Positions 42,020-63,063 of a stretch of DNA of 64,000 bases are shown in pieces (within the stretch, counting starts at the first letter, position 1; each line of letters opens with the position of its first letter). The DNA is from an uncultured delta proteobacterium (GTDB lineage: Bacteria > Desulfobacterota > Desulfobacteria > Desulfobacterales > B30-G6), in the NCBI GenBank assembly GCA_963823335.1, contig CAWGLD010000004.1:68382-132381 (forward strand). The letters are read 5' to 3'. The notes beneath the pieces were generated by a model. It was not told where the DNA came from and made no database searches. It was given only the letters and a program-made list of their open reading frames with translations. A program made the translations under genes and the position numbers.

Positions 42020-42034
42020 AACGGCCGTTTGGGC

Positions 42035-42604: not shown

Positions 42605-42700
42605 AATTGTTTCATGCATTTGTGAAAGGCAAACAGCTGCTGCTTGTATTTAAAACAAGATACTGTCTTCTTGACCCCTTGGATTTTCGGACCCTGAATT

Positions 42701-43222: not shown

Positions 43223-43231
43223 GCGTTCAAA

Positions 43232-44815: not shown

Positions 44816-44822
44816 TAAGAAC

Positions 44823-46760: not shown

Positions 46761-46812
46761 TCTCCCAACTTGTTGGGAGAAGAACTAAAGAATAAAACAA
46801 GCGAGATAAACT

Positions 46813-48525: not shown

Positions 48526-49012
48526 AAACTAATGAACATCGAACATCGAACGTCCAACATCGAATTTTGAATAAAAAGATAAAGAAACAGGCGTATGATC
48601 TGGAAGAAAGGTTGCTCGAGTATTCGGTGAGAATCGTAAAACTCGTTGAACAACTTCCAAATACCAAGGCAGGCAGTCATATTGCGGGGCAATTGTTAAG
48701 ATCTGGAACTTCACCATACCCAAATCATGGTGAAGCTCAGGCAGCGGAATCCCCGAAAGACTTTATCCATAAATTACGTATTTCATTAAAGGAACTCAGG
48801 GAAACCCAGCGATGGTTAAAATTAATACAGCGAGTACCACTAATTAAAAAGCCTGAACTATTGAAGGATATTATCGAGGAAACTGAAGAATTAATTAAGA
48901 TTTTCGTCGCGAGCATTAAAACTGCGGAAAAGAGAAAGAGATAATTCATTATTGTTTGTTTTTCATTCGACATTGGACGTTCGATGTTCGATGTTGGACG
49001 TTCATCTTTAAA
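48526..49012 (+). mobile_element. full-length IVS-like palindromic element, family A, copy R6 (carries an intact ORF)
   Basis: Left arm 48531-48572 and right arm 48961-49009 are near-perfect reverse complements enclosing the 48567-48944 ORF. Confidence 0.85.
48567..48944 (+). CDS. four-helix-bundle protein (23S rRNA intervening-sequence protein family, PF05635/TIGR02436-like)
   Basis: ..AGQLLRSGTSPYPNHGEAQAAESPKDFIHKLRISLKELRETQRWLKLI.. fits the family signature; 125 aa with no internal Met; the TTG start lies inside the left arm. Confidence 0.8.
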   Translation: MNKKIKKQAYDLEERLLEYSVRIVKLVEQLPNTKAGSHIAGQLLRSGTSPYPNHGEAQAAESPKDFIHKLRISLKELRETQRWLKLIQRVPLIKKPELLKDIIEETEELIKIFVASIKTAEKRKR

Positions 49013-49042
49013 TAACCAAGAAAACCCAACAAACAGGTTATT

Positions 49043-50266: not shown

Positions 50267-50303
50267 AATCTCTCCGCGATTTTATTTGGCGCGATGTTGT
50301 CGC
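50263..50303 (-). repeat. bipartite boundary hairpin motif, copy h
   Basis: ATAAAATC-tctccgc-GATTTTAT TTGGC GCGAT-gtt-GTCGC; the platform-gene stop TAA (50264-50266) is inside the AT hairpin. Confidence 0.7.
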
Positions 50304-50536
50304 TTATAAATGCACGATATAAATTCCTACTTTTAAAATCCTGAGAAACCAGACATACTATGAATATTTCAGATGGTTTCAGAGATCGAATATAGTTTAT
50401 ACCGCTTGTCATAATACTGTTCCGAAAATAGGATGGCGGCATAAGGGGTTGTAGCAGAAAAAAGGTCCTCAATCGGAACGTTTTTCTGACAACCCCTATA
50501 TAACTATATGTAATCATTATTATGCAATAAAAACTA

Positions 50537-50577
50537 GCGACGCAGTCGCGTCAAATAAAATTGCGGAGCAATTTTAT
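50537..50577 (+). repeat. bipartite boundary hairpin motif, copy i
   Basis: GCGAC-gca-GTCGC GTCAAAT AAAATTG-cggag-CAATTTTAT; the loop carries the only GGAG upstream of ATG 50576, which overlaps the motif end; inverted relative to copy h. Confidence 0.75.
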
Positions 50578-51892
50578 GAAGGATATCCGATTCAACATCA
50601 GTCTGTACGTCATTATTCCCGTTATCATCGCGGGTATCTCCATATTGGCTACCATCGCCTCCTTCAACATCACCACCTACTATTTCAAACGCGGTTTTGA
50701 CCCCACATGGCCGGTGGCTTTCTGGGGTAGCATCATGATCATCGTAACAGCTGTTTTTGGTGTTTTAATCGTCAAGTTCATCATCGATCCCATGAAACGA
50801 TTCGCACGAAACACCGAAAATTTAGGCGTACTCGGACGAATGCCCAAAACAGACAAACCGGATGACATGGAACGATTTTCACAACTTTTCGACCAGGTCA
50901 CCGATATTTTGGGTCAAGTGGAGGCCCGGGAGCTATTCCCGAATATCGTGGGCCAGAGTAAAGTCATGCGGGGGGTCTTGAAACAGATTCTCCAGGTTGC
51001 CAAGACGGATTCCACTGTCCTCATTCTCGGTGAGACCGGCACCGGAAAAGAGTTGATTGCCCAAAGTATTCATCAGCACAGCAAGCGAAGGGAAAAGGAT
51101 TTCATTGCCCTCAACTGTGCCGCCATCCCTGAAAATTTGCTTGAAAGCGAATTGTTCGGCCATGAAAAAGGCGCCTTCACCGGAGCTTCTTCCCGAAAAC
51201 TCGGCAAATTTGAAATTGCCCACAACAGCACCCTTTTCATGGACGAAATCGGCGACATGCCCATGGAAACCCAGACAAAGGTATTGCGGGCGATCCAGGA
51301 AAATCAATTTGGTCGCGTGGGGGGTGTCAAAACCATCAAGGTCAACGTTCGTTTTATTACCGCCACGCATCAAGATCTGACATCCCTGGTCAAGCAGGGG
51401 AAATTCCGTCAGGACCTCTATTACCGGCTGAATGTTTTTGCCATCCATCTGCCCCCTTTGCGTGAAAGACGGGAAGATATTCCGCTGCTTGTCGACAGTT
51501 TTCTGGGGAAACAGAATAAACAATTTAACGTAACATCGGAAACCATGCAGCTTCTAACCGCCTATGACTGGCCTGGAAATGTACGTGAACTTGAAAATGC
51601 CATCGAAGCTGCAACCATCATTACTGAAGACGTCATCCAACCCAAACACCTGCCGTCATCTATTACCAACACGTTTGGCAAATCCATAGCAAATAAAATA
51701 GACACGCTTCCTAAAATGAATCTGGATAATCGTATCCATGAGCTTGAAAAAGGGATGATCATCGATGCATTGACCACGACAGGTGGCATCCAGAAGAAGG
51801 CAGCCTTTCTTTTAGGCATCAAGGAACGCAGTTTATGGCATCGGATCAAAAAGTATGATATTGATGCGAGCTCTTTCAAACAACAAATGTAG
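50576..51892 (+). CDS. sigma-54-dependent transcriptional activator, membrane-anchored (2 TM), no receiver domain
   Basis: Two N-terminal TM helices; AAA+ core with GETGTGKE, GAFTGA, and C-terminal Fis-type HTH (..QKKAAFLLGIKERSLWHRIKK..). Confidence 0.88.
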   Translation: MKDIRFNISLYVIIPVIIAGISILATIASFNITTYYFKRGFDPTWPVAFWGSIMIIVTAVFGVLIVKFIIDPMKRFARNTENLGVLGRMPKTDKPDDMERFSQLFDQVTDILGQVEARELFPNIVGQSKVMRGVLKQILQVAKTDSTVLILGETGTGKELIAQSIHQHSKRREKDFIALNCAAIPENLLESELFGHEKGAFTGASSRKLGKFEIAHNSTLFMDEIGDMPMETQTKVLRAIQENQFGRVGGVKTIKVNVRFITATHQDLTSLVKQGKFRQDLYYRLNVFAIHLPPLRERREDIPLLVDSFLGKQNKQFNVTSETMQLLTAYDWPGNVRELENAIEAATIITEDVIQPKHLPSSITNTFGKSIANKIDTLPKMNLDNRIHELEKGMIIDALTTTGGIQKKAAFLLGIKERSLWHRIKKYDIDASSFKQQM

Positions 51893-52215
51893 TATTTCAA
51901 CTACAATATTTGGTGCTTTACAATTATATTAACTATTTCAGCATGTTTAGATTCGTTGTTGCAATAATTATTTTAGATATTTTACTAACCTCGAGTTGTT
52001 TCACTTGACAGACACGTAAAAAACTCTAAATTTTTACCATACCTGTAACGCCAGGTATCCAGAACCTATAGTAAACATAGGTTTTTTTCGTTCACAAAGA
52101 TGATATCTTTAGGGCTTGTTGACATCTTTTTACAAGGGTATATCAATGATTTATTCATGTTTTGTTCCTTCTTTTTTTGTCGATAGTGATAATCTTTTTA
52201 CTTAATTCACAAATC

Positions 52216-52231
52216 TGGCATTTTATGTGCA
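52216..52231 (+). promoter_or_regulatory. sigma-54 (-24/-12) promoter upstream of the pilin gene
   Basis: TGGCATTTTATGTGCA: GG and GC dinucleotides at the canonical TGGCAC-N5-TTGC spacing, 87 nt upstream of ATG 52318. Confidence 0.6.
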
Positions 52232-52317
52232 CTAACTTTCATCAGATATATTGCCACCTAAGCAAATTTAATGTTTGATACGGTTTTGAAATTGGAATTC
52301 ATCACAAGGAGAATCAA

Positions 52318-52734
52318 ATGCAGGCAAAAACAGTTAAAATGAGGCAGCAGAAAAAAAAGGAAGAAGGTTTCACGCTTGTGGAGGTCATTGCTGTATTGGT
52401 CATACTTGGCATTCTGGCAGCAGTTGCCATTCCTAAATTTTTTGACATGCAGGACACCGCCAGGCAAAAGGCCATTTTGGGCGCCGTCGGCGAACTGAAT
52501 GGACAAGTTGCGCTTGCTTTTGCACAAAATGCATTGAATGGCGGAGTCGCCGGTAATTATTCTGGCTATACAGGTGACATAGGTCCCGAGTTCGTTCTCA
52601 CCGGCCAGGCTGCAGATGCACCGGGCACAGGCACGATCGCTTTTGCCACCCCCCCTGGTGTTCACATTTATACGCTTACGTGGGCAGCCGGTGATACTGA
52701 ATCGCCGGGGTACTTTTCGGTAACTTTCCCTTAA
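52318..52734 (+). CDS. type IV major pilin (MshA-like), no cysteines
   Basis: Class III signal ..KKKEEG|FTLVEVIAVLVILGILAAVAIPKF with Glu+5; AAGGAG RBS; 138 aa. Confidence 0.88.
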   Translation: MQAKTVKMRQQKKKEEGFTLVEVIAVLVILGILAAVAIPKFFDMQDTARQKAILGAVGELNGQVALAFAQNALNGGVAGNYSGYTGDIGPEFVLTGQAADAPGTGTIAFATPPGVHIYTLTWAAGDTESPGYFSVTFP

Positions 52735-52782
52735 TGATTTAGTCTGGCCGTGATCTGGACGCACTTATTTAACGGAATGAAT

Positions 52783-52804
52783 CCCCCCGCGGCATGCCGC
52801 GGGG
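52783..52804 (+). terminator. GC-rich perfect palindrome after the pilin gene (attenuator/terminator-like, no clear U tract)
   Basis: CCCCGCGGCA|TGCCGCGGGG perfect 20-nt palindrome ~50 nt after the pilin stop. Confidence 0.45.
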
Positions 52805-52989
52805 TATCGTTCAACTGATTCTGCCGATTCCAGCGCAGGAAGCTGCGGGGTATCAGACCCTGAAAGAGATTAACTTACTCAAGATTCCACTATCTCGACA
52901 AAGATCGAATTCTCATTCCTGTCGTCTTTGCCAACATGGCAATTTTTGTATCCTGTTCGATGTGTCAATACCTTTAACCTGAAAACATA

Positions 52990-53517
52990 GTGCCCCGTAT
53001 GTCAATAGTACCTGATTGCAAAAATGAAAATGGCTTTTCCCTTGTCGAAATCATAGCTGCTCTGGTCATTGTCGTCATCATCAGCACAGTTGTTATCAGC
53101 CGGTCCGGTTCTTTTACAACCGACCTGGTTTCCCAGACAGAGATCCTAAAAGTCCATCTTCGTCACGCCCAGTCTCTTGGGATGATCGGATCAGATCCAA
53201 GTGCTGTTTATGGTATAAAATGCGACACCAATTTTTATTGGATGTTCAAAGGCATCGATCCGGACCTTAATATCCTTATGCTCACCGATGATCAGCGATA
53301 CAACACCAACAATGACGGCAAACTCGATTTAACCCCAAAAAAAATAGCCATAGGAACCGCTTTCACTGTAATTTTTGACCAGCGGGGGATTCCCTACCGT
53401 TCCTATACAAATGAAACCGACAACGACCCATATTCTGAAGATCTCTTGATTGACGTAACAAAGGCAGGCGATGTCGAGACCATCACCGTAACACTGCACA
53501 CGGGGTTTATACCTTGA
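52990..53517 (+). CDS. minor pilin / pseudopilin with prepilin-type N-terminus
   Basis: ..KNENG|FSLVEIIAALVIVVIIS..; start uncertain (GTG 52990 or ATG 52999). Confidence 0.7.
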   Translation: MPRMSIVPDCKNENGFSLVEIIAALVIVVIISTVVISRSGSFTTDLVSQTEILKVHLRHAQSLGMIGSDPSAVYGIKCDTNFYWMFKGIDPDLNILMLTDDQRYNTNNDGKLDLTPKKIAIGTAFTVIFDQRGIPYRSYTNETDNDPYSEDLLIDVTKAGDVETITVTLHTGFIP

Positions 53518-53924
53518 TGAACAGATTCAAAATGCCTTCCATTTTCAAATCCCAGAAAGGATTTACCCTCCTGGAGATCATTGCCACCCTGATCCTGGTT
53601 GGTATTTCTGCGGCGGTTATGTATCCCGTTATGCGAACAAACCTGATCCGAAGTGCCGAACCCGTAAACCGTTTAAATGATCATCAGCTTCTTATTCAGG
53701 AGATGGACAAATGGACCGGCATTTATCGGGATGAAATTAAAAATAACTCCCTGGACATCGTCAATTTCAAATCAAATGTTGATTCAAATGCCAATTATCT
53801 GGACAGTACATCCTATATCAACAGCTTCAACGGCGGTGCCTATGCCACTCAGGGAACCAATAAGATATTGCGTGTCACTCTGATAAACAACGACCAGACA
53901 CTGGTAGCCTTGTTTGCAGAATGA
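53517..53924 (+). CDS. minor pilin / pseudopilin with prepilin-type N-terminus
   Basis: ..KSQKG|FTLLEIIATLILVGISAA..; ATG overlaps the preceding TGA. Confidence 0.7.
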   Translation: MNRFKMPSIFKSQKGFTLLEIIATLILVGISAAVMYPVMRTNLIRSAEPVNRLNDHQLLIQEMDKWTGIYRDEIKNNSLDIVNFKSNVDSNANYLDSTSYINSFNGGAYATQGTNKILRVTLINNDQTLVALFAE

Positions 53925-53984
53925 CATCGCCCAGCGACGTCATCAAACGCGATCTCGTCGCTTTTTTAAACGAAAGTTTTACAC

Positions 53985-54575
53985 ATGAACAATCACACGA
54001 CAATAAACAATAGAAGCCATCTCAACAATGGTTTCAGCTTGGTAGAACTGATAGTAAGCCTGACCCTTGCGGGAATTCTGGCGCTGGCGCTCATGACCAT
54101 CGTGGTCACCGCTCTCAATGGGTTTTCACTTTCAAGAGACGCTGCCGGCGTCACCCAGAAAGCCAATCTGGCTCTCTCCCGTATCCGGATTGAGCTCTTG
54201 AATGCCACGGACATCACCACTGCCGAAGCAAACAGAATCATTTACGAAACCGCTCAAGGCACCTATGAAATCCTGAAAACAGGTAACATCATCACCCTGG
54301 AAAAAACAGACGCCGCATCACCTATAGCGGCCAGAACCCTGGTGGACAATATCCTGGCAGACTACGGAACAGACAATTTTCTTGCTTACCAAAAACGGAA
54401 TGCCTCGACATGGACACCTTCTGACGACATCTCGGAGCTGTATGCCATCACGTTGATGCTCAGATTTACAAACTACCCCCGTTCCATAGAGACCATGGTC
54501 AACCCACGCAACAACCAGGTAAGGAATGCACCATTGCTCGTTATGGCAACTGTTTTTCAAACAGAGCGTTTATAA
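53985..54575 (+). CDS. minor pilin / pseudopilin with prepilin-type N-terminus (PilW/MshO-like)
   Basis: ..HLNNG|FSLVELIVSLTLAGILAL.. Confidence 0.7.
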   Translation: MNNHTTINNRSHLNNGFSLVELIVSLTLAGILALALMTIVVTALNGFSLSRDAAGVTQKANLALSRIRIELLNATDITTAEANRIIYETAQGTYEILKTGNIITLEKTDAASPIAARTLVDNILADYGTDNFLAYQKRNASTWTPSDDISELYAITLMLRFTNYPRSIETMVNPRNNQVRNAPLLVMATVFQTERL

Positions 54576-54668
54576 CCGCTGTCGGATAGGTGTAGATGCC
54601 GTTAGCCTTTTTTTGTTTTAGTTCTTTAACTGCAAAATTGTGTATTTAATGGCAAAAAAATAAGAACA

Positions 54669-54761
54669 ATCACGAAAACACGCACGAATTATCCGTACAG
54701 GATAAATCTGAAAAACACGAAAGTTTTCATGGTCTTTTTCGTGGTTTCGTGCTTTCGTGAT
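54669..54761. repeat. hairpin with CACGAAA-unit arms
   Basis: ATCACGAAAACACGCACGAA (54669-54688) vs TTCGTGGTTTCGTGCTTTCGTGAT (54738-54761), reverse complements apart from a 4-nt indel. Confidence 0.6.
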
Positions 54762-54832
54762 AAAAGATCTTTTTCTTTTCCGGTTTATCCGGGACGGGTT
54801 TTAGGTGTTACGTTTTAGCTAGGTCACAAGGT

Positions 54833-57601
54833 ATGAACCTAATTCAAAATTCAACATTAAACATTAAAAATTGCCCCTCTCCACTGGCCAATGCATCTGG
54901 CGCTGTTCTGCTGACAGTGGTGATTATTATCATTATCGTCGGCATGGCGGGTGTTGCCATGTATTCCTTGACCAGCACATCCACTTTTACCCAGTTGTAC
55001 GCCCAGAATGCAACCAGAGCCTATTATCTGGCTGAATCCGGTTTCAGGGTGGTTGCCAGCGAATACAATAATGCCGATGATGACGAGAAATTGGATGTTC
55101 TGGGAAATCTGCATGGGACAACCCTCAGCCTGCCGGGCAATACCGGGCAATTCGATATGAGGCTTTACCCGTACTGGTTTTATGTCAGCAGCGCCTACAC
55201 AGCCAACAGCACCAGCATCAATGTTAAAATACCGGGTGGCACACCTTTGAGAAACCCGGCCGATACCGGCTCCCCCAGGGTATCGCTTCCCAACAGCGGT
55301 TACCTGAAACTGCAGAGCAAAAGCCAGTTGGCTGCCATATCCTCGGTGTCTCCCGGTTCTCCTGCAGATGGCGCTACGATTACCTTCGGTATCAATCCAG
55401 GATTCCCCTATGACATTCAGACCGATGAGGAGCTTTTTCTGGTCTATACGGACAATAACACCACCAGCCAACCAGCGGTTCCCCAAGATGGCAGCATCGA
55501 TTTCCCAGGCACCAATCCGGTTGCCCAGTTACTGCCGGCCCAGAACGGTTCCTTCAGGGTATACAACGAAGACAACGATAAAATGGACTATACCTATTTG
55601 GAAAAATTTCCACCGGCTGTCGATCCCGGGAACCCCCCAACCACCATTACACTGAGCGGCATCCAGCACCAGAACGACGGCGACCCATCCGTGTTCCCGT
55701 TTACCATCGACAACACCTCCGAAATATACTTTGGCCGGAACCTGGCTGTCTTTTCCACCTCCACCTTCGGAACCGGTACCATGGCTGCCAGAAAGACCGT
55801 GGGCAATTATACCGATGTGGGGCTGGATGGCGGTTTTTTCAAGGATAAAGACACCATTTCTTTTGAGAAGGAGATTGGCGATTTCACGCCTACCATGAGC
55901 GATCCGGGACCGGGATATCCTGACCCCATTGAAATCGACACCACCAATAAAACCATTAAACTGGGCGGCAATCTCATCGATGAATACGGTTCTGTCTGGT
56001 ACAAGGGCTATACGGACATCGCCGACTGTATTCAGGGCAACTGCCTTTTGGGCCGGGGTTTTCGGGCTTATTTCGAGTTTACATTTGACAACACGGACAA
56101 TTCCATCGCCAGCACGGATTTCGGCGACGGGTTCACCTTTTCTCTTGTCAGCGGTGCCAATTACACCAATGGTGATACCGGTTTAGGTGGCGAGTACATG
56201 GGATATGCCGGCCCAGGTCTTTCCAGCAACGGACTGCAGCCGCCCAAACTGGCAGTCGAGATCGATACCTACCCGAATACAGGTGCCGGCAGTGTGTGCA
56301 ACGACAGTACTGATAGTCGGCGCGACGATGAGCCTGTGGCCAACCACACCGCCCTGGTTTACTGGGGTGAAGAAAGCGTCGGTTCTATTGATGCTCAGGG
56401 CGGATACATTCGTATCGGATCCGCATCACCTTCCGTTGGGGAGCCCGAGGACTGGAGCTCCTCCCAAGGAACCATCAGCTTCTGGTTCAAACGCGATACC
56501 ATTTTCTACGGTGACGGAAATACGAGCGGTGACAGGCTGTGGGGACAGGACGCCAACATGGAAACCCGTTTTTCCGGCACAACAGGCTCAAATTTTTTTC
56601 TCGACTGGGGTACTGGTGGTGAAGGTTCAATCAATGCAATCAACCCGTTTACCGGGGCTGGCACATGGTACTTTATTGCCATCACATGGGATGATGCAAC
56701 GGATCAATTGAAAGTTTATTCCGGCAATCAAACCACCGTCTCACTTCTTGCGGAAAATCTGGCCTGGACAGGAGATATGAACGCCCTTGGAATAATTACT
56801 GAAAATCTTTTCCTGAACTCCAGCGGTGGCAACAGTTCGAAAAATTTTGCTGCCGATGGTAACGGCTCAGACCTGCGTTACTACAATGTCGCCAGGAGTC
56901 TGTCCGATATAGAAAGCGATTACAAGGTGCGGCGGACCGGCAGTGAAGCCGGCCTGCAGGCCTATTTCCCCTTGCAGGCGGATCTGTTGGATGCCGGCCC
57001 CACCGGCATAGCAGACTCCTCGACCATAGGGAACACGGACTGGTCCACAGACACCATCGCCGCTTTCGATTGTGGAACGGTATTAGCAGTGAAAAGAGCA
57101 ACGTATGACGACAACCGCCATGGCGCCGGCGGCAGCCCCACCACCACCACTCCTCAGAACTCCCTGAACAGCAATAGCGGCAACGGCTATGACGGGTACC
57201 ACCAGGTCACGGGTTCCAGTCCCAACTGGCTTGAAGATGGATCGCCGCACAGACTCCGCATGGAACTGATACGACCTCTCATTCTGGCGGCCGACGGCGA
57301 CATCGACGCGTTCTATGATTACCAGGTAAAAATCTGGATCGACTGCGCCACCTGTTCGGCAGCTGAGCTAGCCCAGTTCAAGGACGTACGGGCGGATTTT
57401 TCGGCCAGTCTTCCACAGATCGAAAAAACCATTAATAGAGGAAACTCCCTGAAAATCGACCCTGCTGATCATCTCGACTTGTTACGTGTCCTGTTCGGAT
57501 TTACCCAGGGTACCGGCGGTGCGACACAGAACATTACCCTTCGCAACCTCGAACTTTATTTTCTGAAGGAATACCCGGTGTCCTACCCGGCTGCATGGTA
57601 A
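54833..57601 (+). CDS. large pilus-associated protein: PilX-like N-terminal anchor, legume-lectin-like domain and LamG-like domain (MshQ/PilY1 functional analogue)
   Basis: N-terminal hydrophobic helix AVLLTVVIIIIIVGMAGVAMY; LAVEIDT (56249-56269) fits the legume lectin beta-chain signature [LIV]-[STAG]-V-[DEQV]-[FLI]-D-[ST]; ..GTISFWFKRD...WYFIAITWDDATDQLKVYSGN.. resembles Laminin_G_3. Confidence 0.65.
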   Translation: MNLIQNSTLNIKNCPSPLANASGAVLLTVVIIIIIVGMAGVAMYSLTSTSTFTQLYAQNATRAYYLAESGFRVVASEYNNADDDEKLDVLGNLHGTTLSLPGNTGQFDMRLYPYWFYVSSAYTANSTSINVKIPGGTPLRNPADTGSPRVSLPNSGYLKLQSKSQLAAISSVSPGSPADGATITFGINPGFPYDIQTDEELFLVYTDNNTTSQPAVPQDGSIDFPGTNPVAQLLPAQNGSFRVYNEDNDKMDYTYLEKFPPAVDPGNPPTTITLSGIQHQNDGDPSVFPFTIDNTSEIYFGRNLAVFSTSTFGTGTMAARKTVGNYTDVGLDGGFFKDKDTISFEKEIGDFTPTMSDPGPGYPDPIEIDTTNKTIKLGGNLIDEYGSVWYKGYTDIADCIQGNCLLGRGFRAYFEFTFDNTDNSIASTDFGDGFTFSLVSGANYTNGDTGLGGEYMGYAGPGLSSNGLQPPKLAVEIDTYPNTGAGSVCNDSTDSRRDDEPVANHTALVYWGEESVGSIDAQGGYIRIGSASPSVGEPEDWSSSQGTISFWFKRDTIFYGDGNTSGDRLWGQDANMETRFSGTTGSNFFLDWGTGGEGSINAINPFTGAGTWYFIAITWDDATDQLKVYSGNQTTVSLLAENLAWTGDMNALGIITENLFLNSSGGNSSKNFAADGNGSDLRYYNVARSLSDIESDYKVRRTGSEAGLQAYFPLQADLLDAGPTGIADSSTIGNTDWSTDTIAAFDCGTVLAVKRATYDDNRHGAGGSPTTTTPQNSLNSNSGNGYDGYHQVTGSSPNWLEDGSPHRLRMELIRPLILAADGDIDAFYDYQVKIWIDCATCSAAELAQFKDVRADFSASLPQIEKTINRGNSLKIDPADHLDLLRVLFGFTQGTGGATQNITLRNLELYFLKEYPVSYPAAW

Positions 57602-57641
57602 TCGAATCGCAAGGCGATTCGATCTGTCGCGGCTTCGCCGC
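57599..57641 (-). repeat. variant boundary hairpin motif, copy l
   Basis: TAA stop then ATCGAATCGC-aag-GCGATTCGAT CTGTC GCGGC-ttc-GCCGC: the same two-hairpin layout, with the first stem sequence diverged. Confidence 0.5.
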
Positions 57642-57803
57642 TCTTACTGGGTGTAGTCCCATTTTATTGTTGGCATCTATTATTGCCGCATTCATGACCA
57701 GGCCGGCTCCTCATTTTTTCCTTTCTTGATTTTTCCACAGAATCAGCTTAAAAGACCGGCAGTGATTTGATCGCGTGACGAATGCAGGTTGTCCTGGTTT
57801 ATT

Positions 57804-57974
57804 AAAGAGATGAACATCGAGCATCGAACGTCCAACATCGAATTTTGAATGGGAAAAGATGAAGAAATGGGCCAATGATCTTTAATAAAGTCCGCTTGAC
57901 TATTCGTCGGTATTGTTTTTTTCTTTTCATTCGATGTTGGACGTTGAATGTTCGATGTTGGACGTTCATCTTTT
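57804..57974 (+). mobile_element. miniature IVS-like element, family A, copy R7
   Basis: Arms 57804-57852 and 57922-57974; interior GAATGGGAAAAGATGAAGAAATGGGCCAATGATC... Confidence 0.8.
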
Positions 57975-58070
57975 AAATCTTTACTTTGGCATAAATGCAG
58001 TTTGTACTTGATATGCCAATAGATACGATCGATTTTTTGTAAAACGTCATTGTTTTATCGCTTGGGAACC

Positions 58071-58300
58071 AATGAACGTCGAACATCGAACGCTCAACAT
58101 CGAATTTTGAATGGGTATAAATGAAGAAACAGGTGTATGTTGAATGGGAAAAGATGAAGAAATGGGCCAATGATCTTTAATAAAGTCCGCTTGACTATTC
58201 GTCGGTATTGTTTTTTTCTTTTCATTCGATGTTCATCTTTTAAACCTTTTTTGATTCATCATTGGACGTTCGATGTTCGATGTTCGATGTTCATCTTTTA
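58071..58300 (+). mobile_element. IVS-like element, family A, copy R8, containing a nested partial copy of R7
   Basis: Outer arms 58071-58113 and 58259-58300; 58141-58243 repeats the R7 interior plus a truncated arm. Confidence 0.7.
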
Positions 58301-58396
58301 AATATTTACTACGGCATAAATACTGTTTGTACTTGATATGCCAATAGATACGATGGATTTCTTGTAAAATGTTAATTGTTTTAAAGCCGGGGAACC

Positions 58397-58631
58397 AATG
58401 AACATCCAACATCGAACGTCCAACATCGAATTTTGAATTTAAAAGATGAAGAAACAAGTATATGATTTCCTGTCATTCCCGTGTGTTTGCTCCTTAGCAG
58501 GAATGGGACGAGAGTCCAGTGGACACTATATATGCACGGCTTACCCGAATTTTTTAAGAAGTTGCTAACTTCAGCATTAAATATTTCTTTTCATTCGACG
58601 TTGGATGTTCGATGTTGGACGTTCATCTTTT
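58397..58631 (+). mobile_element. IVS-like element, family A, copy R9 (longer interior)
   Basis: Arms 58397-58440 and 58586-58631; the interior begins AAAAGATGAAGAAACAAGTATATGATTTCC (the ORF 5' homology). Confidence 0.75.
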
Positions 58632-58660
58632 AAAAAGTTCTGTAAAGGAATTTAATTAAA

Positions 58661-60838
58661 TTGAACATAAATACCATTCTGAAAAAATACAAAACTTCTG
58701 AAAGAAAAACACTCTCAGAACACGAATCCAAACAGATACTGCAGGCCTATGGTATCCCTGTTGTCCGGGAGACCGTCGCTACAACAAAAGAAAACGCAGT
58801 GGCGGCAGCCCTGGAAATCGGCTTCCCCATCGTTTTGAAGGGACTGGGTGCCCGGTTGACCCACAAGACCGAGCGCGGTCTGGTGCATACGCACCTGAAA
58901 ACCAAAACCGAGGTTCGATCAGCCGCCGAGAACATACAGCAAAAGGCCGGGAGTGATCTGGAAGGCTTTCTTGTCCAGCCCCAGATCCAGGGGAAAAGGG
59001 AGTGGATCGCGGGTCTTTCCCATGACGATCAGTTCGGACCGGTCATCATGTTCGGTGCCGGCGGCATTTTAACCGAAGCCATCTCGGATGTGACCTTCCG
59101 CCTTGCGCCTTTGTCACCTGAGGACGCCCAGGCGATGATCCATGAAATCAAATCATCTGCCTTACTCGACAATTTCCGGGGCGAGGCAAAAATTGACAAA
59201 ATACAGCTCGTTAAAGTTCTCACAGGTTTGAGTAAACTTGTCCAAGATCATCCTGAAATTGTCGAGGTGGATATCAACCCCCTCATCGCGACTCCCAGCG
59301 GGGATTTAATGGCCGTCGATGCGCTGGTGGTTGTGGGTACCAAACACCAAACAGCCGCCTCACCTCCCAGCACCTTCCAACCGGAGTCTCTGATGCCCTT
59401 CTTTTATCCCAAATCCATTGCCTTTATCGGTGCCTCTGCCACCATGGGCAAGTGGGGCCACATGCTGGTGGCAAACACCAAAAGCGGCGGCTATGCGGGA
59501 AAGATATACCTTGTCAATCCAAAAGGGGGGAAAATTGTGGGCCAAGAGGCCTATCGATCCCTTTCCGATATTCACGACCCGGTCGACCTTGCCATCGTCA
59601 CCATACCGGCCGAACATGTGATAAGCCTGATTCCGCAGCTACAGGCAAAAGGCATCCATCACATGCTTCTGATAACCTCAGGATTCTCCGAAACCGACAA
59701 CGCCGGAAAAAAACGCGAAAAAGAACTGGTCGCATCGGCGCGGCAGGCCGGAATCCAGATACTGGGTCCCAACACCATGGGTATCTGCAATCCCCACGTG
59801 GCTCTCAACTGCACCAGCCTGCCCGTACAACCGAGACCGGGATCCACCGCTCTTGTATCCCAATCCGGGAACATGGGCACCCAGTTCCTGGCCTTTGCAG
59901 AACATCAGGGCATCGGTATCCGTGGTTTTTGTGGGTCCGGCAATGAAGCCATGACCACCATCGAAGACTTTCTGGAAGTTTTTGAAGCGGATGAGCTCAC
60001 AAAAACCGTCATGCTCTATATCGAAAGTGTCAAAAATGGCCGTCGCTTTTACGAGACCGCCAGGCGTCTGGGGAAAATAAAACCGATTATTCTGATGAAA
60101 GGCGGACAAACTCAAGCCGGCATCAAGGCGGCAGCCAGCCATACCGGAGCGTTGAGTACCGATGCCAGAATTTTCAATTCGGTTTGCAGGCAGGCAGGCA
60201 TTGTCAAGGTGGAACAGTCCATGGATCTGCTCGATCTGGCTGCGGCCTTCTCTTCCCTGCCGCTGCCCAAAGGCAATCGTGCCGGTATCATGACCCTTGG
60301 GGGCGGCTGGGGTGTGGTCACCGCCGATCTGTGTAACGAATACCATATAGACGTTCCAGACCTGTCCCCCGGTCTGATCGAGCAGATCGACAAGTGGCTG
60401 CCCCCTTTCTGGAGCCGATCAAACCCCATCGATCTCGTTGGAGAACACAACGACACCCTGCCGCTGACAATTATCGAAGAACTCTTAAAATGGGACGGCT
60501 GTGATGCCGTTATCAATCTCGGTATCATGGGTCGCAAACATCTGGCCGGACTCTATGTCGATGCTGTCAAGCGTTCTGACCCCATGTACGAGCCCTCATT
60601 TTTAGACAGCATTAAAGAAACACTAGCGGCATTTGAAAAAAGATATGTCGAAGAAATCGCCAGACTCATGGAGATCTACCAGAAACCCGTTATCGGCGTC
60701 TCCCTCTTGACAGATGCCCTGGATCGTACCACGTATTTGGTTGAAAACTGCCCATACAAAGGTGTTTTCTACACAACCCCGGAGCGCGCCGTTAAAACGC
60801 TGGCTAAAATGGTGCAATACAGTAAGTATAAAACGTAG
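58661..60838 (+). CDS. ADP-forming (NDP-forming) acyl/acetyl-CoA synthetase, fused ATP-grasp + CoA-binding + ligase-CoA domains
   Basis: N-terminal ATP-grasp (..LSEHESKQILQAYGIPV..), then CoA-binding ..PKSIAFIGAS....GG.. and SCS-alpha-like domains with a phosphohistidine-type loop (AASHTGAL); TTG start. Confidence 0.8.
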   Translation: MNINTILKKYKTSERKTLSEHESKQILQAYGIPVVRETVATTKENAVAAALEIGFPIVLKGLGARLTHKTERGLVHTHLKTKTEVRSAAENIQQKAGSDLEGFLVQPQIQGKREWIAGLSHDDQFGPVIMFGAGGILTEAISDVTFRLAPLSPEDAQAMIHEIKSSALLDNFRGEAKIDKIQLVKVLTGLSKLVQDHPEIVEVDINPLIATPSGDLMAVDALVVVGTKHQTAASPPSTFQPESLMPFFYPKSIAFIGASATMGKWGHMLVANTKSGGYAGKIYLVNPKGGKIVGQEAYRSLSDIHDPVDLAIVTIPAEHVISLIPQLQAKGIHHMLLITSGFSETDNAGKKREKELVASARQAGIQILGPNTMGICNPHVALNCTSLPVQPRPGSTALVSQSGNMGTQFLAFAEHQGIGIRGFCGSGNEAMTTIEDFLEVFEADELTKTVMLYIESVKNGRRFYETARRLGKIKPIILMKGGQTQAGIKAAASHTGALSTDARIFNSVCRQAGIVKVEQSMDLLDLAAAFSSLPLPKGNRAGIMTLGGGWGVVTADLCNEYHIDVPDLSPGLIEQIDKWLPPFWSRSNPIDLVGEHNDTLPLTIIEELLKWDGCDAVINLGIMGRKHLAGLYVDAVKRSDPMYEPSFLDSIKETLAAFEKRYVEEIARLMEIYQKPVIGVSLLTDALDRTTYLVENCPYKGVFYTTPERAVKTLAKMVQYSKYKT

Positions 60839-60878
60839 GGTCCGAGGGTTCAAGGGTGATACAAGGGTTCGAGGGTAG
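60838..60878. repeat. octamer-unit arm (family B type), possible left arm of a composite hairpin
   Basis: GGGTCCGAGGGTTCAAGGGTGATACAAGGGTTCGAGGGTAG; overlaps the TAG stop of the synthetase; candidate partner at 61645-61682. Confidence 0.5.
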
Positions 60879-61045
60879 CTGACGGCTATCGGCGGAGAGC
60901 AGCATCCCAGCCTCCGGGCGTTCCAGCATGCAAAGATGCAAGGACAAGCTATAAACCAGCGGCTATAGACTGTTAGCCGCCTACAGCCTAACAGTCTATC
61001 AGTCTAACAGCCTCCCGTTAGGCAAAGCCTGTGGGATTAAATAGA

Positions 61046-61086
61046 GCGGCAAGACCGCGCTTCATAAAATTGCGGAGTGATTTTAT
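61046..61086 (+). repeat. bipartite boundary hairpin motif, copy j (degenerate GC hairpin)
   Basis: GCGGC-aaga-CCGC GCTTC ATAAAAT-tgcggagtg-ATTTTAT; the loop is nearly identical to copy i (TTGCGGAG). Confidence 0.6.
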
Positions 61087-61090
61087 TATT

Positions 61091-61258
61091 ATGTACAATA
61101 AATATCTCAAAACATTCGACTTCGAAGTCGGTCATCTCATTAAAAGTCCCTGCAAGAACTGCAGGCATTATTATATCTTCCCTCGATGCATCGCTGAATG
61201 CACACTTCTGGATAAAATACAGGATGTGTTGTCGACGGTGGTATCCAGTACACGATAA
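61091..61258 (+). CDS. small Cys-rich hypothetical protein (55 aa)
   Basis: MYNKYLKTFDFEVGHLIKSPCKNCRHYYIFPRCIAECTLLDKIQ..: CxxC plus two further Cys; preceded by motif copy j; coding status uncertain. Confidence 0.35.
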   Translation: MYNKYLKTFDFEVGHLIKSPCKNCRHYYIFPRCIAECTLLDKIQDVLSTVVSSTR

Positions 61259-61266
61259 ACAGGTTT

Positions 61267-61408
61267 AAAAATGATGAACGTCGAACATCGAACGCTCAAC
61301 ATCGAATTTTGAATGGAGAGATGAAAAAACAGATGCGGGACTCGGGTTTAACTATTTCTTTTTATTCGACGTTGGACGTTGGATGTTCGATGTTGGACGT
61401 TCATCTTT
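61267..61408 (+). mobile_element. miniature IVS-like element, family A, copy R10
   Basis: Arms 61267-61316 and 61361-61408; interior AGAGATGAAAAAACAGATGCGGGACTCGGG. Confidence 0.8.
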
Positions 61409-61487
61409 AAGATCTTTTTAAACCCAAATCGGATACCTGCAAGAAAGCTTTATTCAATTGGCATAAATGATACTCCGATAGAAGTTT

Positions 61488-61599
61488 AAAAATGATGAAC
61501 GTCGAACATCGAACGCTCAACATCGAATTTTGAATGGAAAGATGAAAAAACAGATGCGGGACTCGGGTTTAACTATTTCTTTTTATTCGACGTTCATCT
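61488..61599 (+). mobile_element. miniature IVS-like element, family A, copy R11 (right arm truncated)
   Basis: The left arm and interior are nearly identical to R10; the right arm is reduced to TTTTTATTCGACGTTCATCT. Confidence 0.75.
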
Positions 61600-61644
61600 C
61601 AAGAAAACTTACTACAGCAAAAATCCTGGCTACTGCTCAGAGCT

Positions 61645-61682
61645 TACCCTCCGAACCTCCAACCCTACAAACCCCCGACCCT
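61645..61682. repeat. octamer-unit arm, candidate partner of 60838-60878
   Basis: TACCCTCCGAACCTCCAACCCTACAAACCCCCGACCCT; its reverse complement resembles the 60838 arm; abuts the minus-strand stop at 61681. Confidence 0.4.
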
Positions 61683-63063
61683 ATCTCTTCCCCAATTTCG
61701 CCACCGTTTCAATATGATATGTATGCGGAAACATATCCACCGGTTGTACTTCCAGCAAGTCATAGGATTCCCCTAAAAGGCCGACATCCCTTGCCAGCGA
61801 GGCCGGATTGCAGGAAACATAGACAATCCTGGCCGGTGCCAGCCTGAGAACCTGTTGGATTACGTCCTTGTGCATACCGGCCCTGGGGGGGTCGATCACC
61901 ACTACCTGTGGTTTTTCAGCGAGCTGGGGAAGTTTATCCTTGATGTCTCCCTGGACAAACCGACAATTGGATACATGGTTGATCCGACAATTTCTTTCGG
62001 CATCCCTCACTGCAGATTCGACCTGTTCAATACCGACAATCTGTTTTGCCGAATCCGCCAGATAAATGGCAATCGTGCCGGTGCCACTGTATAAATCAAG
62101 AACCGTTTCATGCCCCTGCAGTTCCGCATACTGCCTGGTCTTTTCATAGAGAGTTTGTGCACCCACGCTGTTTGTTTGAAAGAAGGAGTTCGCAGAGATA
62201 ATATATTCGAAAGACCCGATCCTTTCTTTGAAAAAAGGATCACCAGCCAGCAGGACTTCCGACTCTCCGATGGCCACGCTCGATTTCCGGCCGGTAATAT
62301 TATTGATAACCGAGACGACATCGGAATATCGTTCCATCAGTTGGTGTGCCAGGGGTTTCAATACCCTGGTATTCTCGTAACTGGTGACGATGTTGACCAT
62401 CCAGTGGCCATAGAAGGCTGAATTTCTGAGCATGACAAAACGCCAGAACCCCTCATGGCTTCTCAGTCCGTATGGCGGCAGTTCAGAACGCCTGATGGCC
62501 TGTCTGATAAATGCCAGAATATCGTTCCCCAGGTTTGGATGCAGCAGACAGACTTCTGTATCGATCACTTTGTTAAACGTCCCCGGAACATGGAGCCCCA
62601 GAGCAAAGGTTCGATCCAGATCATCTCTATCCATCTCGTTCGGCAGTACCCATCGCCTGTCCGAACACGAAAATTCCATTTTATTTCTGTACCCCAGCAC
62701 TTGCTTAGATGGGATTGTCTTATGGACCAAAACCGTCTCGATCCGGCCTATGTGCGCCAGCGCTTCTGCCACATGCTGCCGTTTGTAGACAAGTTGTTTT
62801 TCATAATCCAGGAATTGCCATTTGCAGCCACCGCAGTGACCACTGTAAGGACAGGCAGGATCGACTCTGTCCGGAGAAGGTGTCAACAGATCGATGATCC
62901 TTGCTTCAGCATAATTCTTCTTTTTACGGGTAATCTGGGCCAGAACCACATCACCGGGCACTGCCTTTTCCACAAACACGGCAAACCCATCCGGTTTTGC
63001 GAGTCCCCTTCCACCAAACGCGATGTGGGATATTTCCAGGGTAATTTGCTGGCCTTTTTTCAT
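61681..63063 (-). CDS. rlmD: 23S rRNA (uracil-C5)-methyltransferase, RlmD/RumA family (TRAM + Fe-S cluster + SAM MTase)
   Basis: N-terminal TRAM (..LEISHIAFGGRGLAK..), Cys cluster CPYSGHCGGCKWQ, SAM motif VLDLYSGTGTIAI, catalytic ..VVIDPPRAG.. and ..IVYVSCNP..; start set at ATG 63063. Confidence 0.8.
   Translation of the reverse strand: MKKGQQITLEISHIAFGGRGLAKPDGFAVFVEKAVPGDVVLAQITRKKKNYAEARIIDLLTPSPDRVDPACPYSGHCGGCKWQFLDYEKQLVYKRQHVAEALAHIGRIETVLVHKTIPSKQVLGYRNKMEFSCSDRRWVLPNEMDRDDLDRTFALGLHVPGTFNKVIDTEVCLLHPNLGNDILAFIRQAIRRSELPPYGLRSHEGFWRFVMLRNSAFYGHWMVNIVTSYENTRVLKPLAHQLMERYSDVVSVINNITGRKSSVAIGESEVLLAGDPFFKERIGSFEYIISANSFFQTNSVGAQTLYEKTRQYAELQGHETVLDLYSGTGTIAIYLADSAKQIVGIEQVESAVRDAERNCRINHVSNCRFVQGDIKDKLPQLAEKPQVVVIDPPRAGMHKDVIQQVLRLAPARIVYVSCNPASLARDVGLLGESYDLLEVQPVDMFPHTYHIETVAKLGKR

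What the first reader, a model, noticed from the sequence alone, without database searches (positions are those of the whole stretch)
57804..58631. Array of three family A elements, one nested, with duplicated spacers
Seen in the sequence:
- R7 (57804-57974), R8 (58071-58300) and R9 (58397-58631) follow each other in direct orientation.
- The two spacers of about 95 bp (57975-58070 and 58301-58396) are homologous to each other. Each carries a TTGGCATA..17 nt..TATGCCAA-type hairpin (57986-58019, with a second copy near 58313-58346).
- R8 contains a partial copy of the R7 interior plus a truncated arm (58141-58243), inserted right after the conserved GAAGAAACAGGTGTATGT segment.
- A related spacer start (TTGGCATAAATGA) recurs at 61458, between R10 and R11.

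Inference: element-into-element insertion, or unequal recombination, has amplified a unit of about 325 bp. The whole 0.85-kb block forms the 5' region of the ADP-forming acyl-CoA synthetase gene (start 58661). It would give a heavily structured leader if transcribed from upstream.
Basis: seen in the sequence. Interest (0 to 1): 0.55.

Follow-up and report, generated by a model that had tools for sequence, protein, structure and literature searches.

The report
Tandemly duplicated, decayed IVS-like cassette
The three hairpin repeats upstream of the acyl-CoA synthetase gene are a tandemly duplicated, decayed copy of a tiny palindromic cassette: a four-helix-bundle protein gene bracketed by inverted runs of 7-base repeats, a design known from ribosomal-RNA intervening sequences. 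I found the same design in every phylum I sampled, which may explain why 7-base repeats are so common in bacterial genomes.

Summary
R7, R8 and R9 are real, direct-oriented members of a repeat family with 59 arm hits in the window against 0.9 expected.

The interpretation needs changing:
- Family A is a miniature derivative of a roughly 470-bp cassette. One intact copy lies at 48533-49003. It carries a promoter-less four-helix-bundle (4HB) gene (PF05635/TIGR02436, the "23S rRNA intervening-sequence protein") between inverted arms of 4-5 tandem heptamers.
- The array is a head-to-tail duplication: 57845-58139 and 58140-58464 are 90.5% identical end to end. The "nested" copy is the duplication junction.
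- The "spacers" are probably decayed mid-gene remnants (transitive homology through a sister strain).
- An independent assembly of that sister strain reproduces R9, S2 and most of R8 exactly. It carries a divergent 300-bp patch, readable as a 4HB pseudogene, and lacks the 30-nt "truncated arm".

The arm sequence occurs in more than 100 contigs, mostly from Desulfobacterota genome bins. All nine 4HB loci sampled elsewhere also have heptamer inverted arms: two Bacteroides, one Xanthomonas, and six plasmid records from Nostoc, Planktothrix, Chlorohelix, Treponema, Bernardetia and Monoglobus. The published Coxiella IVS shares the design.

A role in the synthetase leader (RNase III-type processing) is inferred, not shown.

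The parts
57810..57843 (+). R7 left arm: ATGAAC plus 4 heptamers (GAACATC type) ending ATCGAAT
57845..58139 (+). Duplication unit 1 (295 nt). It runs TTGAATGGG, ATG plus a remnant of 4HB codons 1-27, right arm, S1, left arm, then GGGTATAAATGAAGAAACAGGTGTATG.
   Evidence: aligns end to end with unit 2, 266/294 identical
57859..57928 (+). R7 interior: decayed 5' end of a 4HB gene (MKKWANDL**SPLDYS against KIKKQAYDLEERLLEYS)
57929..57969 (+). R7 right arm
   Evidence: (I19)
57975..58070 (+). S1. It contains the hairpin 57986-58019.
58072..58105 (+). R8 left arm
58140..58464 (+). Duplication unit 2 (325 nt). Its first 94 nt are the 99% copy of the R7 interior.
58232..58261 (+). 30-nt segment TTCATCTTTTAAACCTTTTTTGATTCATCA (the 'truncated arm' junction). 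It is present here and absent from the sister strain.
58254..58294 (+). R8 right arm
   Evidence: I14
58301..58396 (+). S2, sister copy of S1. It shares every indel with S1 relative to the sister-strain allele. Weaker hairpin at 58313-58342.
58398..58431 (+). R9 left arm
   Evidence: I16, 91% complementary to 58593-58626
58446..58592 (+). R9 interior: ATGAAGAAACAAGTATATGAT (start codon, MKKQVYD), an unrelated 80-nt stretch, then a 3' gene remnant (GAATTTTTTAAGAAGTTGCTAACTTCAGCATTAAA, resembling ELIKIFVASIK)
   Evidence: the 3' remnant is read from the sequence
58593..58626 (+). R9 right arm. It ends 34 nt before the TTG start (58661) and 18 nt before the AAGGA ribosome-binding site (58645-58649).
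   Evidence: the same adjacency is seen in L074 and L116
48533..49003 (+). Intact full-length family A cassette. Both arms plus ORF 48567-48944 (125 aa, four-helix-bundle protein), lying between a T2SSE-type ATPase gene and a T2SSF gene.
61270..61610 (+). R10 and R11, a second local tandem duplication. The unit is 221 bp; 61263-61373 and 61484-61594 are 99% identical. The R11 right arm has lost 28 nt, which is 4 heptamers.

Best explanation
**What family A is (shown).** It is a family of miniature, internally deleted derivatives of a small palindromic cassette. The full-length form is about 470 bp. It carries a promoter-less gene for a four-helix-bundle (4HB) protein (PF05635/TIGR02436, the "23S rRNA intervening-sequence protein" or S23p). 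The gene sits between inverted arms of 31-40 nt made of 4-5 tandem heptamers (GAACATC, GAACGTC or CAACATC). Published 23S rRNA intervening sequences (IVS) have the same architecture. Here the cassettes lie between protein-coding genes, mostly co-oriented with them.

**What the 57.8-58.6 kb block is (shown, except the origin of the spacers).** It is one decayed composite of such cassettes, not three separate insertions with foreign spacers.
- The R7 interior is the 5' end of the gene.
- S1 and S2 are probably remnants of the middle of the gene.
- R9 keeps a remnant of the start codon and, as read from the sequence, of the 3' end of the gene.
- A 295-bp unit (inner end of left arm, gene 5' remnant, right arm, mid-gene remnant, left arm, start-codon remnant) was duplicated head to tail. 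Unequal recombination between the repeated arms and 5' ends is the likely cause. That produced the third element and the apparently nested copy.
- Gene conversion later made the two 5' remnants 99% identical in this strain.
- A 30-nt indel stretched the second unit to 325 bp.

**What it does (inferred).** When the block is transcribed with the neighbouring genes, each arm pair folds into a stem of about 35-40 bp. In rRNA intervening sequences such a stem is cut by RNase III. The array would then act as a processing and stability site in the 5' region of the acyl-CoA synthetase mRNA, not as a dedicated regulator.
For: **Cassette identity.**
- The ORF 48567-48944 lies between family A arms and hits PF05635 (E = 5e-15) and TIGR02436 (E = 7e-26).
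- The closest solved structure is 2RLD (E = 3e-17, 5 chains).
- Short copies keep the start codon and MKKQ(V/T)YD.
- A deletion series is visible across contigs (L020, L022, L114).
- Four intact ORFs give dN/dS of 0.06-0.15.

**Distribution.**
- The 24-nt arm pattern hits at least 115 contig stretches, mostly from Desulfobacterota genome bins.
- The modal element length is 126 nt. Arms carry 3-5 heptamers, with 4 the most common.

**Array anatomy.**
- Unit 1 and unit 2 are 90.5% identical end to end.
- The full-length cassette, the sister-strain allele and R7-S1-R8 align collinearly.
- The sister-strain patch gives collinear blastx hits to residues 12-27, 55-58, 59-81 and 104-107 of the 4HB protein.
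- That allele's middle scores z = 22.6 against the gene. S1 and S2 score z = 17.3 and 11.3 against the allele.

**Link to rRNA intervening sequences.**
- The Coxiella IVS has a 28-bp terminal stem cut by RNase III, an S23p ORF, and tandem heptamers whose copy number varies between strains (PMC4990558).

**Co-transcription.**
- Elements between same-direction genes are co-oriented in 23 cases and opposed in 7. The gene on the 5' side is co-oriented in 43 cases and opposed in 12.
- All 11 elements in the window are co-oriented with the gene on their 5' side.
- The leader 57795-58660 folds at -264.8 kcal/mol, z = -9.1.
Against: - There are no transcript data, and promoter-like sites are not enriched. 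The leader role and RNase III processing are inference by analogy only.
- The two arms of an element do not match each other better than arms taken from different elements (WC pairs 1148 observed against 1160 in shuffled partners, z = -1.5). There is therefore no evidence that pairing is kept by compensatory change. The heptamer sequence itself may be what is constrained.
- The strand-asymmetry evidence is inconsistent. Sense-strand folds are on average 3 kcal/mol more stable (p = 0.002). In the anchored count, however, sense G.U (63) is rarer than A.C (96).
- S1 and S2 show no significant direct similarity to the intact gene (z < 0). The mid-gene origin rests on transitive homology through one allele, which could itself be a mosaic.
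- How a right arm and a left arm came to lie between gene fragments is unresolved. Both alleles carry an arm-like segment there (z = 10.1).
- No target-site duplication or transposition mechanism was identified.
Confidence: 0.75

Rival explanations
1. First reader's model. Three independent insertions of a miniature inverted-repeat element, one of which received a nested insertion of another copy, separated by duplicated but unrelated spacer DNA.
For: - Nesting of family members and of small GC-rich hairpins inside arms does occur in other contigs (L049, L104, L112). It also occurs in the window element at 10869-11094.
- Repeated arm termini (..GTTCATCTTTT.. twice) are seen next to several copies.
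Against: - The copy in R8 has no left-arm heptamers and starts exactly where unit 2 starts.
- The two units align end to end at 90.5%.
- The "truncated arm" is a 30-nt indel absent from the sister strain.
- The spacers are homologous to a 4HB pseudogene segment at the same position in that strain.
Confidence: 0.1
2. The heptamer arms are mainly protein-binding arrays, not RNA stems. The pentameric 4HB protein, or a host factor, would recognise the tandem heptamers as single- or double-stranded DNA or RNA, for autoregulation or for mobility of the cassette. The array would then be a cluster of such binding sites. This is compatible with the main explanation for anatomy and history. It differs on mechanism.
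For: - Arm sequence is conserved to 24-nt exact matches across species, while synonymous sites of the enclosed gene have dS of 0.5-0.95.
- There is no within-element compensatory covariation.
- The number of heptamers per arm is tightly distributed: 3-5, most often 4, plus a partial unit, giving 31 nt. The same 31 nt recurs in Bacteroides and Nostoc.
- Solved relatives crystallise with 5 chains (2RLD and 2GSC). XCC0516 is described as a homopentamer (PMC4990558; PMC3936711).
- The heptamer sequence differs between lineages while the architecture stays the same.
Against: - No binding data exist.
- Most copies in a genome have no gene, so a protein supplied in trans from rare intact copies would be needed.
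- The Coxiella work suggests S23p is not made there.
- An octamer-armed family also exists in the window (46500-46760).
Confidence: 0.3
3. The block is a dedicated cis-regulatory leader of the acyl-CoA synthetase gene (attenuator, riboswitch or thermosensor type).
For: - The fold is very stable (z = -9.1).
- A family A hairpin abuts the ribosome-binding site of the orthologous gene in a species with 83% nucleotide identity (L074).
Against: - The same element sits at about 10 other unrelated places in 64 kb.
- Rfam gives no family above threshold, only generic long-hairpin (miRNA precursor) matches below threshold.
- The left third of the block is replaced by a 75%-identical patch in a strain that is otherwise 99.6% identical.
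- The related species has one element, not three.
Confidence: 0.08
4. Assembly artefact: a repeat was collapsed or expanded.
For: The region is repeat-rich and includes a 97-nt copy at 99% identity.
Against: - An independent ENA assembly (L116) reproduces R9, S2, the R8 right arm and the R7 left arm essentially base for base.
- Most of the duplicated unit is only 84-88% identical, so short reads can separate the copies.
Confidence: 0.02

Closest known systems
23S rRNA intervening sequences carrying an S23p (4HB) ORF (Leptospira, Coxiella burnetii, Xanthomonas and others; PMC4990558)
   Same: - Size of about 430-470 nt.
- Terminal inverted repeats that form a long stem.
- An ORF of the same protein family (PF05635).
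- Tandem heptamers just upstream of the ORF, with variable copy number.
- ORF decay is common.
   Different: - Family A copies lie between protein-coding genes, not in rRNA helices. No rRNA motifs were found in any fetched contig.
- Family A is highly multicopy: 11 copies in 64 kb.
- Most copies are ORF-less miniatures.
- RNase III processing is untested here.
Bacterial miniature inverted-repeat elements co-transcribed with genes (Correia/NEMIS of Neisseria, ERIC/IRU of enterobacteria); from my own knowledge
   Same: - Intergenic palindromic units of about 120-160 bp.
- Internally variable.
- Co-transcribed with neighbouring genes, and form hairpins. Correia hairpins are RNase III substrates.
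   Different: - The parent element encodes no transposase, only a 125-aa 4HB protein.
- The arms are tandem heptamers.
- No target-site duplication was seen.
- There is no sequence relation (Rfam negative).
Over-represented intergenic heptamer repeats: GGGAATC in Xanthomonas and GGGGA(C/T)T in Nostoc (PMC4692102), and cyanobacterial STRR heptamers (from my own knowledge)
   Same: - Tandem heptamers in intergenic regions.
- Often found as convergent (inverted) pairs.
- Mostly between same-direction ORFs, at positions conserved between species.
   Different: - That work read the repeats as G-quadruplex formers and did not connect them with 4HB genes.
- Here a Xanthomonas 4HB gene between accB and accC is flanked by exactly those heptamers in inverted orientation.
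- Family A heptamers are not G-rich.
BIME/REP mosaic elements of enterobacteria (from my own knowledge)
   Same: - Mosaic clusters of palindromic units at the ends of genes.
- Different combinations occupy the same intergenic site in related genomes.
- Local tandem amplification.
   Different: REP units are short GC-rich hairpins tied to RAYT transposases. No RAYT and no REP-like sequence are involved here.
Avd accessory protein of diversity-generating retroelements (PMC10053308 lists PF05635)
   Same: The same protein fold family. That Avd is a basic pentameric barrel that binds nucleic acid and reverse transcriptase is from my own knowledge.
   Different: I did not look systematically for a reverse transcriptase or for template/variable repeat pairs, and saw none next to family A copies. 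The cassette stands alone.

Membership tests
23S rRNA intervening sequence (IVS) with S23p ORF | Inserted in a helix of the 23S rRNA gene | tested here: not met
   All copies lie between protein-coding genes. No rRNA signature motifs were found in the window or in 116 contigs. Rfam finds no rRNA in the window.
23S rRNA intervening sequence (IVS) with S23p ORF | Terminal inverted repeats that form a long stem around the element | tested here: met
   Arms of 31-59 nt are 80-91% complementary. Single elements fold at -57 to -78 kcal/mol.
23S rRNA intervening sequence (IVS) with S23p ORF | ORF of the PF05635/TIGR02436 family inside the element | tested here: met
   The intact copy at 48567-48944 meets it. 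In the array only remnants are left.
23S rRNA intervening sequence (IVS) with S23p ORF | Excision of the stem by RNase III | not testable with these tools
   Needs RNA work. Shown for Coxiella only.
[quoted passage not shown] | Short, non-coding, multicopy, with terminal inverted repeats | tested here: met
   74 paired copies were found, modal length 126 nt. The window holds 11 copies.
[quoted passage not shown] | Derived from, and mobilised by, an insertion sequence that encodes a transposase with matching ends | tested here: not met
   Full-length copies encode only the 4HB protein.
[quoted passage not shown] | Target-site duplication at the ends | tested here: inconclusive
   The flanks of 50 copies show no constant direct repeat. 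The inverted repeat runs into an A-run and a T-run, so the ends are not sharply defined. No clean empty site was found in the syntenic contigs.
Tandem (segmental) duplication by unequal recombination | Two adjacent units that align end to end, with one junction | tested here: met
   57845-58139 against 58140-58464: 266/294 identical, one 30-nt indel, junction at 58139|58140.
Known structured RNA family (Rfam) | Match at or above the curated gathering score | tested here: not met
   No hits in the whole window. Only sub-threshold miRNA-precursor-like matches in 57500-61800.
Diversity-generating retroelement (Avd context) | Adjacent reverse transcriptase and template/variable repeat pair | not tested
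   No systematic search was made. The neighbours of the intact copy are T2SSE and T2SSF genes.

The most novel reading that the evidence does not exclude
Arm-flanked 4HB cassettes may be one cross-phylum class of tiny selfish or regulatory elements, with the rRNA intervening sequences as a special case. Their ORF-less derivatives would be the main source of the long-noted excess of intergenic heptamer repeats in bacteria (Xanthomonas GGGAATC, and perhaps cyanobacterial STRR-type repeats). Mechanistically, the homopentameric 4HB ring would read the roughly five tandem heptamers of an arm, one unit per subunit, for its own regulation or spread. That would give the S23p/IVS protein family its first function.
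Probability: 0.3. Interest if true: 0.85.

Novelty: new variant of a known kind. Interest (0 to 1): 0.62.

Why it matters
**For this locus.** The apparent three-element array with spacers becomes one decayed, duplicated cassette that differs between near-identical strains. This warns against reading such blocks as designed leaders.

**More broadly.**
- The function of the S23p/four-helix-bundle family has been unknown since it was found in rRNA intervening sequences (the paper cited dates from 1993).
- Heptamer repeats are a known but unexplained excess in bacterial genomes. PMC4692102 says that no detailed literature on them existed.
- All ten 4HB loci examined here have inverted heptamer arms: the window copy and nine loci from other lineages. 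The published Coxiella IVS has the same features.
- This gives a concrete, testable link between the two puzzles.
- It also flags a source of long hairpins inside operons, including essential ones such as accB-accC in Xanthomonas and the arabinose operon in Bacteroides.

Tried and rejected
- **Exact-protein look-ups.** The window's acyl-CoA synthetase and T2SSF proteins are not on record. Only the 4HB protein led to a second assembly.
- **Single ancestral element.** I first read L074 as showing that one element was ancestral. I withdrew this. Its left flank, GGAGAACCAAT, recurs at an unrelated locus in L035. It is therefore a left-end variant, not proof of a lost spacer, and one outgroup cannot set the direction of change.
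- **Sigma-54 promoter in the spacers.** TGGCAT-N-..GC in S1 and S2 has the wrong GG-to-GC spacing. TTGGCATCTATTATTGCC at 57669 is one base too long (read from the sequence).
- **G.U strand asymmetry as proof of RNA-level selection.** Counts taken from minimum-energy folds looked strong (138 against 38). An anchored count reversed this (63 against 96), so I dropped it as evidence.
- **Within-element compensatory covariation of the arms.** Negative.
- **Module S.** This conserved right flank in other genome bins shares only a 13-nt exact match with S1 (z = 6.2). It shares nothing with the gene or with the sister-strain allele, so no homology is established.
- **Bacteroides FopS sRNA family.** I recalled it as a possible counterpart. 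It is unrelated: it has its own promoters, a single-stranded 5' end and a terminator.
- **Literature.** Ten searches found no paper that links 4HB/S23p genes outside rRNA to heptamer inverted arms. One 2026 preprint on mining non-coding elements could not be opened.
- **Rfam.** Nothing above threshold.

Full report
**1. The observation**

The sequence at 57.8-58.6 kb contains three direct-oriented elements. Each is bounded by a left arm ATGAAC(ATCGAAC)n..ATCGAAT and a complementary right arm.
- Arms: R7 57810-57843 and 57929-57969; R8 58072-58105 and 58254-58294; R9 58398-58431 and 58593-58626.
- A degenerate 17-nt arm pattern hits 59 times in the window against 0.88 expected.
- Besides R7-R9 there are copies at about 4887-5052, 10126-10156 (solo arm), 10869-11094, 32657-32805, 36689-36838, 48533-49003, 61275-61402 and 61496-61600.
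- The two spacers are homologous at 84-88%.
- The S1 hairpin has 8 bp and an 18-nt loop. The S2 hairpin has only 6 bp.
- 58137-58233 is 99% identical to 57842-57938.
- The motif at 61458 is present, but the rest of that spacer does not align with S1 or S2.

**2. What family A is**

The long copy at 48533-49003 holds an ORF (48567-48944, 125 aa). It matches PF05635 "23S rRNA-intervening sequence protein" (E = 5e-15) and TIGR02436 "four helix bundle protein" (E = 7e-26). Its only solved relative by sequence is 2RLD.
- Short copies are therefore internal-deletion derivatives.
- Intermediates that keep both the N- and C-terminal coding ends occur in other genomes.

A 24-nt arm pattern hit at least 115 stretches in the species-level genome collection.
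- Nearly all are from Desulfobacterota genome bins of many lineages. A few are from bins labelled Opitutales, Nitrospirota, Bacteroidales and Pseudomonadota.
- Among 74 paired copies the modal length is 126 nt.
- Only four copies carry an intact ORF.
- Those four ORFs give dN/dS of 0.06-0.15 with dS up to 0.95. The protein is under purifying selection, while the arms stay almost invariant.
- Arms hold 3-5 heptamers, most often 4.

**3. What the array is**

57845-58139 (295 nt) and 58140-58464 (325 nt) align end to end. 266 of 294 aligned columns are identical, with one 30-nt indel. The array therefore consists of:
- one left arm;
- two tandem units, each made of the inner end of a left arm, a 5' gene remnant, a right arm, S, a left arm and a start-codon remnant;
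- the rest of R9.

The "nested" copy is simply the start of unit 2.

The 4HB protein is identical in a second assembly (P0001). Over 38567-54028 that contig (L116) is 99.58% identical to the window, with no gaps. From 54027 onward identity drops to 94.5%, with 47 gaps. In the array:
- L116 matches the window up to 57867 and again from about 58150 to 58660.
- It lacks the 30 nt at 58232-58261.
- Between 57868 and 58150 it carries a patch that is about 75% identical.

That patch reads as a collinear, frameshifted 4HB pseudogene.
- blastx hits fall on residues 12-27 (E = 1e-4), 55-58, 59-81 and 104-107.
- Its middle aligns to nt 129-228 of the intact gene with z = 22.6.
- S1 and S2 align to that middle with z = 17.3 and 11.3, and share all their indels.
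- The full-length cassette, the L116 allele and R7-S1-R8 align collinearly.

I conclude, with moderate confidence, that the "spacers" are decayed mid-gene remnants. S1 and S2 show no significant direct similarity to the intact gene, so this rests on one intermediate allele.

Both alleles have an arm-like segment between the 5' and middle gene remnants (z = 10.1 against the arm, 0.5 against the gene). I could not establish how arms came to lie there.

A related species (L074, 83% identity across the synthetase gene) has a single element with an R7-type interior directly abutting the same ribosome-binding site. With one outgroup I cannot say whether that state is ancestral or reduced.

R10 and R11 form a second local duplication. 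The unit is 221 bp at 99% identity, and the R11 arm has lost four heptamers.

**4. Behaviour of the family**

- At orthologous intergenic sites in syntenic contigs, the same site can hold a family A copy with a different interior, or a different palindromic family altogether.
- One copy (10869-11094) is about 95% identical to its orthologue, while the flanking genes are 82-85% identical.
- Elements are mostly co-oriented with their neighbours: 23 against 7 between same-direction genes, and 43 against 12 relative to the 5' gene. All 11 elements in the window are co-oriented. These counts include orthologous sites, so they are not independent.
- The leader folds with z = -9.1. In the minimum-energy fold, arms of different elements pair with each other.
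- The two arms of one element are no more complementary than arms of different elements.
- Strand-asymmetry evidence is contradictory. Conservation may therefore act on the heptamer sequence, not on pairing.

**5. Comparison with what is known**

The Coxiella 23S rRNA intervening sequence is 428 nt. It has a 28-bp terminal stem cut by RNase III, an S23p ORF, and tandem heptamers (GACAGAT) upstream of the ORF whose number varies between strains (PMC4990558). Family A matches this design but is not in rRNA.

PF05635 genes have been noticed inside cas operons (PMC3936711).

I then sampled 4HB genes elsewhere:
- Two Bacteroides loci: 31-nt arms of AATTGAC x 4.4, 94-97% complementary, inside the arabinose operon and an aromatic amino-acid operon.
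- Six plasmid-borne genes from Nostoc, Planktothrix, Chlorohelix, Treponema, Bernardetia and Monoglobus. All have inverted arms built of tandem heptamers with lineage-specific sequence. Five of the six lie between co-oriented genes, and the sixth (Bernardetia) is co-oriented with its downstream gene only.
- A Xanthomonas gene between accB and accC, flanked by GGGAATC-type heptamers and their complement.

Those GGGAATC repeats were described in 2015 as enriched, often paired in inverted orientation, and unexplained. That paper does not mention this gene family (PMC4692102).

An octamer-armed element in the window (46500-46760) carries a C-terminal 4HB remnant. Its only NCBIfam hit is TIGR02436, E = 0.016.

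Ten literature searches found no description of this general architecture outside rRNA.

**6. Verdict**

It is wrong about nesting and, probably, about the nature of the spacers.
- The leader role remains untested.
- The array itself is a decaying, strain-variable passenger.
- The family it belongs to is a new variant of a known kind: an IVS-type cassette living in operons and producing miniature derivatives.
- The cross-phylum link between 4HB genes and heptamer repeats deserves a proper census and a binding experiment.

Noticed in passing
window 46500-46760; also 38370-38519, 60837-60876 and 61646-61683: Other palindromic families have arms made of tandem octamers (AAGGATTC/GGGTTCGA with CTTGAATC; GAGGGGTG with ACCCTCCA). 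The element at 46500-46760 carries a C-terminal 4HB remnant (LDYMNKKKLQGLREELGDVERMLKAMIKSLENKH). Its only NCBIfam hit is TIGR02436, positions 78-109, E = 0.016.
   Followed up: partly
L118 1438-1468/1893-1923; L119 1472-1502/1919-1949; L121-L126; L128 about 929-958/1344-1372: All nine 4HB loci sampled outside this lineage are flanked by inverted arms of tandem heptamers (two Bacteroides, one Xanthomonas, and one each from Nostoc, Planktothrix, Chlorohelix, Treponema, Bernardetia and Monoglobus). The heptamer sequence is lineage-specific. All but the Bernardetia gene sit inside co-oriented operons. The Xanthomonas arms are the GGGAATC repeats of PMC4692102.
   Followed up: partly
L047, L053, L060, L094, L095, L103, L058, L082 and other contigs (not in the window): A 126-nt subfamily shares the family A arms but has a different, highly conserved interior (GAATAAGGTATTCTGCCAATTTATAAACYGGCRGAGCGAAGCGATTTCATC). 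It contains a small hairpin CTGCCA/TGGCGG, with one compensatory variant CTACCA/TGGTGG in L029. Several copies share flanks across species. It has no match in the window.
   Followed up: partly
L049, L104, L112, L114, L106, L061, L071, L033; window 57987-57999: A conserved module (..CCCCGTATGGCATAAATGCAACCTGTGAACGTTTACAAAATAACTTAGCGCTTATGGGG) follows the right arm in many genome bins. Its reverse complement precedes the left arm in L096 and L026. It shares only TGGCATAAATGCA with S1 (z = 6.2). Origin unknown.
   Followed up: partly
window 61263-61610: R10 and R11 are a 221-bp tandem duplication at 99% identity. The R11 right arm has lost exactly 28 nt, which is four heptamers. The copy nested in R8 shows the same kind of loss, pointing to slippage in register with the heptamers.
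   Followed up: yes
window 10869-11094 against L035 4450-4628: This family A copy is about 95% identical to its orthologue in a related species, while the adjacent genes are 82-85% identical. The window copy has an extra nested insert of about 47 nt (TTGAAGAACCTCGCAGCAAGCTACGGGGTTAGCGCTCGCTTTTTCGG). Similar small GC-rich hairpins interrupt arms in L049 and L112.
   Followed up: no
window 54027-58150 against L116 15616-19790: The sister strain changes from 99.58% identity with no gaps to 94.5% identity with 47 gaps at about 54027. The window's 922-aa ORF 54833-57601 has no Pfam hit and is called as two shorter genes there. A further short divergent patch lies at the 5' end of the synthetase gene (about 58682-58716). 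In that patch L116 looks closer to the related species L074.
   Followed up: no
window 48526-49042: The intact 4HB cassette fills the whole gap between a T2SSE-type ATPase gene (ends 48525) and a T2SSF gene (starts 49043). Its canonical ATG is changed to ATA, leaving an upstream in-frame TTG as the start.
   Followed up: no
L025 5065-5182 and flanks of 5187-5310: In the syntenic contig, the family A copy orthologous to window 32657-32805 is itself enclosed by arms of another heptamer family (GGCAGGAGGCAGAATTCAGAAT with ATTCTGTATTCTGTCTCCTGTCTTCTGACTTCTGAC). This shows nesting of different arm families.
   Followed up: no
element 5' end (for example 58101-58135) against gene nt about 270-305 of 48567-48944: The left-arm inner end plus start region (CGAATTTTGAATGGGTATAAATGAAGAAACAGGTG) resembles an internal gene segment (CTGAACTATTGAAGGATATTATCGAGGAAACTGAAG, PELLKDIIEETEE) at about 26 of 35 positions, counted by eye. 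This could serve as a site for homeologous recombination that produces deletions or duplications.
   Followed up: no
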